Shown: positions 26,713 through 27,929 of the stretch, piece after piece | Numbering within the stretch: position 1 is the first letter of the stretch | Layout: every line of letters begins with the position of its first letter | Source of the DNA: the human T2T-CHM13v2.0 reference genome, Homo sapiens | Reading direction: 5' to 3' (one strand) | Assembly: GCF_009914755.1 (NCBI RefSeq) | Contig: NC_060947.1 | DNA length: 64,000 bases | Made by a program: the position numbers and the translations under genes | Notes under the pieces: model-generated | Databases searched by the model: none | Seen by the model: the letters and a program-made list of their open reading frames with translations, nothing else | What the model was told of the DNA's origin: nothing

Positions 26713-26995
26713 GCCAGGCGCGGTGGCTCACGCCTGCAATCCCAGCACCTTGGGAGGCTAAGGTGGGTGGACCGCCTGCGGTCAGGAGCTCAAGACCAGA
26801 ATGACCAACACGGCGAAACCCCATCTTCACTAAAAATTCAAAAATGAGCCGGGCATGGTGGCAGGTGCCTGCAATCCCAGCCACTTGGGAGGCTAAGGCA
26901 GGAGAACGGCCAGAAGCCAGGAGGCGGAGGTTGCAGTGAGCCGAGACCGCACTCCAGCCTGGGTGACAGAGCAAGACTCTGCCTAAAAAAAAAAT
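26713..26995 (+). mobile_element. AluS-like element with T>C hypermutation
   Basis: Own TSD ATATAATGTGATA (26700-26712 and 27023-27035); about 13 T>C changes versus the consensus, e.g. ctgCaatc, cacCttgg, aacaCggCgaaa, cagcCact. Confidence 0.95.
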
Positions 26996-27339
26996 TATAT
27001 ATAGATATATCTGTCTATCTATATATAATGTGATAAATGGTCTAATAGTTGCTCTACAGTACATACACCTCAGATTCACATTTTGCAGACTTCACAAATT
27101 CATAGAATTTTACAAATGTATGGGATTCCAGGAATCATTTGACACAATCCCCACACTTGAGCTCATTGTAAACCAAAGCTTGAGAGCAGATAAGGGTGGA
27201 TCCCATAGTCTCTGACTTCTAGTTTACGCCAACATTTACCAAACCAGAGCAGTTTAAGACTACCTTTGACATGTGGGTTACCAAAGATAGTCCACACTGC
27301 ATTATAGCATGTGGATTTGTTTGTCTTTTTTAGTATAAT

Positions 27340-27550
27340 TTCTGTACCTACTAAGAACTTTCACATATATCATCCTATCTAGTCCTCCCAGCAATCATGA
27401 AAATAATTGTTAAGCCTATTTTGTAGATGATAAACTGAGACCCAAAGAAGTCAACAGATTTGCCTACACTTTACAGATCATATCAGGCAAAGCCAAGTTT
27501 TAAACCCATACGATTTGACTTCAGACCTCGCTCTTTCTGCTATGCCACAC
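27340..27550 (-). mobile_element. MIR
   Basis: Core-like ctattttgtagatgataaactgagacccaaagaagtcaa...tttaaaccc. Confidence 0.65.
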
Positions 27551-27619
27551 TGCCTTCACTCTCTGGGAATCAGTCAAGTGTCAATTTGTATTGTTTGAAA
27601 ATTTTTTCTATATGTTATG

Positions 27620-27929
27620 ATGTTTTGTTTTGTTTATTTATTTATTTATGACAGAGTCTTGCTCTGTCGCCCAGGCTGGGGCGCAGTGGCACGATCTCAG
27701 CTCACTGCAACCTCCGCCTCCCGGGTTCAAGCGATTCTCCTGCCTCAGCCCCTCAAGCAGCTGGGACCACAGGCACTTGGCACCACACCCAGCCAATTTT
27801 TGCATTTCCAGCAGAGACGGGGTCTCACCGTGCTGACCAGGCTGGTCCGGAACTCCTGACCTCATGGGATCAGCCCGCCTCGGCCTCCCAAAGTGCCAGG
27901 ACCACAGGCGTGAGCCACCGCGCCTGGCC
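27620..27929 (-). mobile_element. AluS-like element with T>C (Alu-sense A>G) hypermutation
   Basis: About 16 T>C changes on the + strand, e.g. gCagctgggaCCaca, gcCaatttttgCatttCCagCagag, gtgcCaggaCCaca. Confidence 0.95.

What the first reader, a model, noticed from the sequence alone, without database searches (positions are those of the whole stretch)
26713..27929. Genomic fossil of ADAR hyper-editing: inverted Alu pair with strand-specific A>G hypermutation
Seen: two Alus lie tail-to-tail about 620 bp apart, in opposite orientation, and both carry heavy T>C change on the + strand. By eye there are ~13 in the first (e.g. 26737, 26749, 26772, 26789, 26811, 26814, 26872, 26882) and ~16 in the second (e.g. 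27758, 27767-8, 27794, 27803, 27808-9, 27812, 27833, 27897, 27902-3), against only about 3 A>G. Other Alus in the window do not show this. Many sites are TA or TT on +, i.e. 5'-U/A neighbours on the minus strand. Known: ADAR deaminates A to I in inverted-Alu dsRNA, disfavours a 5' G, and reverse transcriptase reads I as G. Inference: one minus-strand RNA folded on its two Alus, was hyper-edited, and was then written into the germline genome. GC-biased gene conversion would be strand-symmetric, and APOBEC3 would give G>A.
Basis: partly seen in the sequence, partly recalled or inferred. Interest (0 to 1): 0.92.

Follow-up and report, generated by a model that had tools for sequence, protein, structure and literature searches.

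The report
ADAR-edited RNA fossilised in human genome
A 1.9-kb piece of chromosome 12 holding two inverted Alus is duplicated on the X chromosome with about 25 one-strand A-to-G changes concentrated in the Alu arms, likely because its RNA was edited by ADAR and then reverse-transcribed into the germline, making RNA edits heritable.

Summary
Confirmed and extended. Window 25991-27929 is a copy of contig C12:68,405,890-68,407,842. It is flanked by a 14-bp target-site duplication, and an older X paralogue shows the empty site. Polarised against 165 control Alus, 26 of 38 X-lineage changes in the two Alu arms are T>C (26 of 98 T sites, against A>G at 0 of 97 A sites, p=4e-9). The chr12 lineage shows ordinary CpG decay, and the non-Alu parts show no significant asymmetry (12/400 vs 8/367). 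Read on the minus strand, the changed As follow ADAR's 5'-neighbour order: U 11/19, A 7/24, C 5/27, G 3/28 (trend p=2e-4); control Alus are flat. Best reading: a minus-strand chr12 RNA folded on its Alus, was hyper-edited by ADAR, and was inserted by L1 machinery roughly 20-28 million years ago. Against or open: no 3'-G preference, no surviving poly(A), source transcription not shown, no orthologues checked. The copy's 5' end falls exactly on Alu2's first base, which is unexplained. One motif probe found no second case, and ten literature searches found no report of this.

The parts
25991..27929 (-). Whole inserted copy (1.94 kb) of G000:C12:68,405,890-68,407,842; the inferred RNA runs on the minus strand
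   Evidence: Collinear alignment, 89.4% over 1973 columns; no match to chr12 beyond these ends. Only these two loci match the 3' unique part; the spacer has these two plus one 80-bp, 79% hit on C7.
25974..25987 (+). Left target-site duplication copy, AAAACAGACTTTTT; extends to 19 bp with one mismatch
   Evidence: Exact 14-mer occurring twice in the window, once at each junction. The empty-site paralogue at C23:114,317,187-205 has one copy and no insert.
25988..25992 (+). 3' junction of the inferred RNA: one T beyond the duplication, then an A run; no surviving poly(A). The target and the chr12 end share an 8-of-10 microhomology
26003..26008 (-). ATTAAA polyadenylation-signal variant (motif recalled); in chr12 it lies 16 nt before a CA at the junction and is followed by a U-rich tract
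   Evidence: 67 nt downstream in chr12 are 52% T
25995..26709 (-). 3' unique, non-Alu part of the copy, outside the Alu-Alu stem
   Evidence: T>C 8/210 vs A>G 2/183, p=0.11
26713..26994 (+). Alu1, antisense in the inferred RNA; 12 X-lineage T>C at 26737, 26749, 26772, 26789, 26811, 26828, 26872, 26882, 26907, 26911, 26947, 26982
   Evidence: 12 of 42 T sites, 0 of 57 A sites
27025..27620 (.). Spacer, the loop of the inferred hairpin, 94% identical to chr12, no strand asymmetry
   Evidence: T>C 4/190, A>G 6/184
27624..27929 (-). Alu2, sense in the inferred RNA, its first base being the 5' end of the copy; 14 X-lineage T>C at 27682, 27751, 27758, 27768, 27794, 27803, 27808, 27809, 27812, 27824, 27848, 27897, 27902, 27903
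   Evidence: 14 of 56 T sites, 0 of 40 A sites. In chr12 this Alu has its own duplication on both sides; X keeps only the inner one.
27930..27943 (+). Right target-site duplication copy, followed by GA (TTTTT/GA, an L1-endonuclease-type nick site by recalled consensus)

Best explanation
This is a chr12-derived insertion with a target-site duplication whose two Alu arms carry 26 one-strand changes, likely the record of one ADAR-hyper-edited RNA molecule that was likely reverse-transcribed into the germline X by L1 proteins. Shown: source locus, direction chr12 to X, duplication, empty site, T>C excess concentrated in the arms, 5'-neighbour order U>A>C>G. Inferred steps: (1) a minus-strand transcript over chr12:68.406-68.408 Mb, probably Pol II and ending at the ATTAAA site; (2) its inverted Alus pair into a stem of about 260 bp; (3) ADAR deaminates about a quarter of the scorable As on both arms; (4) the RNA 5' of the stem is lost, most likely trimmed back to the stem base (0.6; Pol III start at Alu2 0.25; chance 5' truncation 0.15); (5) L1 ORF2p nicks the X target and primes on a short poly(A) or on the 8-of-10 microhomology, copies I as C, and second-strand synthesis fixes the edits; (6) about 2.6% neutral change per lineage accrues afterwards, roughly 20-28 million years by recalled primate divergences.
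For: T>C at 26 of 98 vs A>G at 0 of 97 arm sites, p=4.4e-9; arms vs non-arm T>C (12/400), p=9e-12. P(26 or more of 98) at the control-Alu rate of 0.022 is 6e-21, so about 2 of the 26 would be ordinary mutations. The chr12 lineage is normal: 10 of its 16 changes are G>A or C>T. 5' neighbour U 11/19, A 7/24, C 5/27, G 3/28, permutation trend p=1.8e-4; control Alus are flat at 0.031-0.035. The measured order for human ADAR1 and ADAR2 is U>A>C>G (PMC3113232 Table 3), and Alu editing hot spots map to TA (PMC526178). The chr12 minus-strand RNA folds with 259 inter-arm pairs starting at the copy's first base. 14-bp duplication, about 3e-6 by chance allowing junction slack; empty-site paralogue; polyadenylation-type signal on the same strand as the edits.
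Against: ADAR's 3'-G preference is absent: 7/37 vs 19/61, p=0.24, in the opposite direction. No poly(A) survives, and the junction can also be read as a 19-bp duplication with an endonuclease-like site at the other end. Transcription and editing of the chr12 source could not be checked. The fold does not discriminate within the arms: 25 of 26 changed sites are paired, but so are 94 of 98 scorable sites, and present-day chr12 was folded, not the ancestral RNA. 25 of the 79 arm differences (10 of them T/C) could not be polarised and were left out. The 3' unique part leans slightly the same way (8 vs 2, p=0.11). No primate orthologue was available.
Confidence: 0.92

Rival explanations
1. ADAR acted on DNA, not RNA: it deaminated dA in an RNA:DNA hybrid during reverse transcription, or in an R-loop after insertion.
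For: ADARs can deaminate dA in DNA:RNA heteroduplex model substrates, and whether they do so in retroviral hybrids is called unknown (PMC12925331 passage). The neighbour bias would be similar. The right end of the duplication also offers an endonuclease-like site (TTTT/AT on the minus strand), which a plus-strand RNA would need.
Against: A hybrid would span the whole 1.94 kb, yet the excess stops at the arms (sliding counts). With a minus-strand RNA the first cDNA is the plus strand, where A>G is 0 of 97. A plus-strand RNA would end at Alu2's first base with no A tract to prime on.
Confidence: 0.04
2. A DNA-level duplication followed by biased mutation or fixation: GC-biased gene conversion, transcription-coupled asymmetry, or conversion from other Alus.
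For: T>C is weak-to-strong; the copy is collinear with chr12, shows no intron loss and has no poly(A).
Against: GC-biased conversion is strand-symmetric (established), but A>G is 0 of 97 against T>C 26 of 98, and A>C plus T>G total 2. Conversion from other Alus would restore the majority base, not create C alleles that are rare among control Alus (0-18%, mostly under 6%). Neither predicts arm confinement or the 5'-neighbour order. The target-site duplication points to retrotransposition.
Confidence: 0.02
3. Same ADAR scar, different vehicle: a Pol III transcript started at Alu2's own promoter and read 1.65 kb downstream, making this an Alu-mediated 3' transduction. This is a variant of step 4 inside the best explanation, so its probability overlaps with it.
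For: The copy begins exactly at Alu2's first base, with no microhomology and no extra G. It has a full-length Alu at the 5' end, a distant duplication and a source with the same Alu, which is the architecture searched for in 10.1101/2024.04.29.591526.
Against: Nine runs of four or more T lie downstream of Alu2 on the chr12 minus strand, one of them T7; X has 11. Four T terminate Pol III, and that paper confirmed no case among 118,489 AluY. ADAR1 mainly edits Alus in Pol II RNA (PMC5974252 passage). The 3' end sits at an ATTAAA site. Alu2's first base is also the stem base, so trimming explains the end equally well.
Confidence: 0.22
4. Assembly or cDNA artefact.
For: Edited cDNA would give the same A>G pattern; reads could not be inspected.
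Against: 66 differences in 1302 non-Alu columns and 11 indels from chr12, a target-site duplication and an empty-site paralogue cannot come from a modern cDNA.
Confidence: 0.01

Closest known systems
ADAR ultra-/hyper-edited inverted-Alu RNAs (PMC3197674; PMC526178)
   Same: Clustered A>G on one strand, in both arms of a nearby inverted Alu pair, with G depleted 5' and TA favoured.
   Different: Those are RNA-versus-genome mismatches; here the changes are fixed in the reference genome at a second locus. The 3'-G excess those papers report is absent.
APOBEC3 'DNA-edited' retroelements fixed in vertebrate genomes (PMC2873906; PMC4866542)
   Same: A deaminase burst on a retrotransposition intermediate, frozen in the germline and detected by strand-biased clusters polarised against a consensus.
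   Different: Those are G>A from C-to-U on cDNA, mostly in LTR elements. This is A>G limited to an RNA duplex in a non-autonomous host sequence.
ADAR-type A>G hypermutated avian retroviruses (Rous-associated virus, avian leukosis virus; as reviewed in PMC12925331)
   Same: A>G clusters in an inverted-repeat region carried through reverse transcription into DNA. This is the direct mechanistic precedent.
   Different: Viral RNA and viral reverse transcriptase, not a host RNA fixed in a primate germline. The original papers were not read.
L1-mobilised retrocopies, including Alu 3' transductions (10.1101/2021.07.12.451456; 10.1101/2024.04.29.591526) and tailless retropseudogenes (recalled)
   Same: Target-site duplication, dispersed source, sharp ends.
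   Different: No surviving poly(A), many Pol III terminators in the carried sequence, and a heavy editing scar.
Retroprocessing of C-to-U-edited plant mitochondrial mRNA into organellar or nuclear DNA (recalled, not looked up)
   Same: RNA edits become genomic through a cDNA.
   Different: Different enzyme, base change, compartment and kingdom; site-specific rather than promiscuous duplex editing.

Membership tests
ADAR hyper-edited inverted-Alu RNA | Dense A>G on one strand only | tested here: met
   26 of 98 vs 0 of 97, p=4.4e-9
ADAR hyper-edited inverted-Alu RNA | Concentrated in the duplex-forming arms | tested here: met
   Arms 26/98 vs non-arm 12/400, p=9e-12; 259 inter-arm pairs
ADAR hyper-edited inverted-Alu RNA | 5' neighbour U>A>C>G | tested here: met
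   11/19, 7/24, 5/27, 3/28; trend p=1.8e-4; controls flat
ADAR hyper-edited inverted-Alu RNA | 3' neighbour G favoured | tested here: not met
   7/37 vs 19/61, p=0.24; the 3' effect is the weaker one in PMC3113232
ADAR hyper-edited inverted-Alu RNA | Source is transcribed on that strand and edited in RNA data | not testable with these tools
   No RNA-seq or editing database on hand
L1-mobilised retrocopy | Short target-site duplication | tested here: met
   14 bp exact; single copy at the empty-site paralogue
L1-mobilised retrocopy | Dispersed source lacking the target flanks | tested here: met
   C12:68,405,890-68,407,842
L1-mobilised retrocopy | 3' poly(A) tail | tested here: not met
   One T beyond the duplication; 8-of-10 microhomology instead. 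Erosion and tailless priming cannot be told apart.
L1-mobilised retrocopy | Endonuclease-type nick site | tested here: inconclusive
   TTTTT/GA fits the recalled consensus, but the base after the T run differs among left copy, right copy and paralogue
L1-mobilised retrocopy | Intron loss | tested here: inconclusive
   Collinear; largest gap 17 nt, so no intron lay in the span
Alu-mediated (Pol III) 3' transduction | Full-length Alu at the 5' end, same Alu at the source, distant 3' duplication | tested here: met
Alu-mediated (Pol III) 3' transduction | No run of four or more T before the end of the carried sequence | tested here: not met
   9 runs in chr12, 11 in X; criterion
APOBEC3 DNA-edited retroelement | Dominant G>A on the sense strand | tested here: not met
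   X-lineage arm changes on +: C>T 1 (the sense-strand G>A class), G>A 2, T>C 26

The most novel reading that the evidence does not exclude
The first genomic fossil of a single ADAR-hyper-edited host RNA molecule written into the primate germline, and the founding member of an overlooked class of A>G-scarred retrocopies made from duplex-bounded RNA fragments trimmed to the base of an inverted-Alu stem.
Probability: 0.6. Interest if true: 0.88.

Novelty: new variant of a known kind. Interest (0 to 1): 0.8.

Why it matters
It would be direct sequence evidence that A-to-I edits can become heritable DNA in primates. A 2016 review says a role for ADAR editing in Alu evolution and retrotransposition had not been determined (PMC4982230 passage), and a 2023 paper argues for write-back from indirect evidence (PMC10209271 passages). 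It implies that ADAR was active in germline or early embryo cells some 20-28 million years ago with today's 5' preference, and that inosine-rich RNA, usually described as retained in the nucleus, can still be copied by L1 reverse transcriptase. It gives a simple, screenable signature. The limit: this looks like a neutral accident at a new locus, probably rare. It does not show directed recoding of the source gene.

Tried and rejected
Second cases: the window stretch 27792-27817 (five edits in 19 nt) matched only this locus at up to 1 mismatch and 9 others at 2 mismatches. All 9 were fetched and none is hyper-edited: 0-5 A>G at 44-45 sites outside the motif, against 10 of 45 here and a control maximum of 7. 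This probes one motif of sense-edited arms only, so it is not a genome-wide screen. A search with Alu1 scored 40 of 9284 candidates; apart from the locus itself all were 82-85% identical, and their sequences were not examined. Folding energy is no test: the X copy folds as well as chr12 because G-U pairs are allowed. The old repeat units inside the window do not hold the empty site; it lies 37 kb upstream. Host transcript: MDM1 coding exons map to C12:68,293,190-68,310,766 on the minus strand, about 95 kb away. I recall LINC02384 ending a few kb before the source on the same strand, but the search listing gave no coordinates, so this is unverified. Alu subfamilies were not assigned (no library). 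PMC9311842 covers L1 and SVA transductions only (abstract). Literature searches (and 19 for the host gene) listed no paper describing an ADAR-edited retrocopy in a genome. The library lacks most subscription papers, and the transduction tables of the T2T repeat paper could not be seen; they may list this locus as an Alu transduction.

Full report
Observation. Searching the genome with the spacer and with the left unique stretch gave one strong second locus, on contig C12, at 94% and 91% identity. Alignment shows that window 25991-27929 equals C12:68,405,890-68,407,842 in the same orientation, and that similarity stops sharply at both ends.

Direction. On X the copy is bracketed by an exact 14-bp repeat (25974-25987 and 27930-27943), found only at these two places in the window. 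An older paralogue of the X flanks at C23:114,316,497-114,318,292 (71-85% identical) has one copy of that site and no insert. In chr12, Alu2 keeps its own duplication on both sides, whereas X keeps only the inner one. So chr12 is the parent and X the insertion.

Substitutions. I harvested 169 near-full-length Alus from the window, the chr12 flanks and 200 kb of C19 and C17, removed the four under study, and used the other 165 as outgroup. Of 79 X-chr12 differences in the arms, 38 polarise to X, 16 to chr12, and 25 (mostly at variable or CpG-type columns; 10 are T/C) were left unassigned. On X, 26 of the 38 are T>C and none is A>G: 26 of 98 scorable T against 0 of 97 scorable A (p=4.4e-9), split 12/42 in Alu1 and 14/56 in Alu2. 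On chr12, 10 of 16 are G>A or C>T. Outside the arms, unpolarised, T>C is 12/400 and A>G 8/367 (p=0.51). No control Alu comes near: maxima of 4 T>C and 7 A>G at conserved columns, against 9 and 15 here. About 2 of the 26 would be expected as ordinary mutation.

Context. On the minus strand these are A>G. By 5' neighbour, the changed fraction is U 11/19, A 7/24, C 5/27, G 3/28, with permutation trend p=1.8e-4; the same classes in control Alus mutate at 0.031-0.035 with no order. This is the order measured for human ADAR1 and ADAR2 (PMC3113232, passages and Table 3). The 3'-G preference in that table and in PMC3197674 (passages) is not seen: 7/37 against 19/61. The chr12 minus strand folds into a stem of 259 inter-arm pairs that begins at the first base of the copy. 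25 of the 26 changed As sit in it, but so do 94 of 98 scorable As, so the informative contrast is arm versus non-arm.

Junctions. At the inferred 3' end, chr12 has ATTAAA 16 nt before a CA and a U-rich tract after it; that these mark a polyadenylation site is recalled knowledge, not tested. No poly(A) survives on X. Two readings remain: a short or eroded tail primed at TTTTT/GA, or tailless priming on an 8-of-10 match between the target and the RNA end. Both give a minus-strand RNA, agreeing with the edits. The repeat can also be read as 19 bp with one mismatch, with an endonuclease-like site at the other end; that would suit a plus-strand RNA, but it leaves nothing to prime on and cannot give T>C by any known deaminase. 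The 5' end is exactly Alu2's first base, with no microhomology and no extra G. That base is both a Pol III start and the base of the stem. Nine T runs of four or more downstream in chr12, one of them T7, weigh against Pol III (criterion in 10.1101/2024.04.29.591526, parts 1-2 of 3 read). I favour a Pol II RNA trimmed back to the stem; this step is the weakest.

Age. The non-Alu parts differ at 66 of 1302 columns (K2P 0.053). By recalled human-gibbon and human-macaque divergences that is roughly 20-28 million years.

Mechanism. Shown: source, direction, duplication, empty site, one-strand excess concentrated in the arms, 5'-neighbour order. Inferred: transcription, folding in vivo, ADAR as the enzyme, L1 as the copier, and the origin of the 5' end. 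Confidence in an ADAR-edited RNA retrocopy is 0.92. Rivals: ADAR on DNA 0.04, biased mutation after DNA duplication 0.02, artefact 0.01.

How common. One 26-nt probe carrying five edits found only this locus at 1 mismatch and nine more at 2; all nine are ordinary outside the motif. This suggests rarity but is not a screen.

Known relatives. RNA-level hyper-editing of inverted Alus is well described (PMC3197674 and PMC526178, passages). Deaminase scars fixed in genomes are described for APOBEC3, as G>A (PMC2873906 passages; PMC4866542 passages, no occurrence of 'ADAR' in the main text). ADAR-type A>G carried through reverse transcription is reported for two avian retroviruses (PMC12925331 passage; originals not read). 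PMC4982230 (passage) calls ADAR's role in Alu evolution undetermined as of 2016. PMC5199112, on Alus and processed pseudogenes, has no occurrence of 'editing'. The passages seen in PMC5974252, PMC10209271 and PMC9148063 describe no such locus. The T2T repeat preprint annotates 386 Alu 3' transductions (passages); its tables could not be seen and may include this locus. Nine topic searches listed no paper on an ADAR-edited retrocopy, judged from titles and abstract starts plus the passages cited; most subscription journals are outside the library.

Verdict. A real and strongly supported feature: a new variant of a known kind (a deaminase-scarred retrocopy, here by ADAR on a host RNA). Interest 0.8. 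It is likely a neutral, rare accident, but it makes the long-discussed write-back of RNA edits into germline DNA directly testable.

Noticed in passing
window 22559-24979, 29770-29860, 31561-35307, 39464-40847: Degenerate copies (62-86% identical, mostly inverted) of the CpG-rich 2970-bp tandem unit found at C23:114,220,001-114,223,200. The name DXZ4 for that array is recalled from its place inside DANT1. The insertion sits in non-array sequence among these copies.
   Followed up: partly
window 22289-25254 vs 29528-32496; G000:C23:114,316,497-114,318,292: Old local duplications: a 3-kb block at 63% identity and 7.2-kb offset inside the window, and the paralogue of the insertion flanks 37 kb upstream.
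   Followed up: partly
window 15373-18083 vs 54168-56731: Long inverted duplication, 70-76% identical, about 36 kb apart.
   Followed up: no
window 10877-14580 vs 44505-48154, and 6743-7998: Strand-skewed A-rich blocks that match each other at 68-73% in both orientations, probably old L1 fragments; not classified.
   Followed up: no
window 19205-19863: A second, adjacent inverted Alu pair (64% arm identity). It does not show the signature: 6 A>G with 6 other changes in one arm, 1 T>C and 0 A>G in the other.
   Followed up: partly
window 26713-26985 and 27649-27929: Four C>A changes polarise to the X lineage in the arms, and three to chr12; too few to interpret.
   Followed up: no
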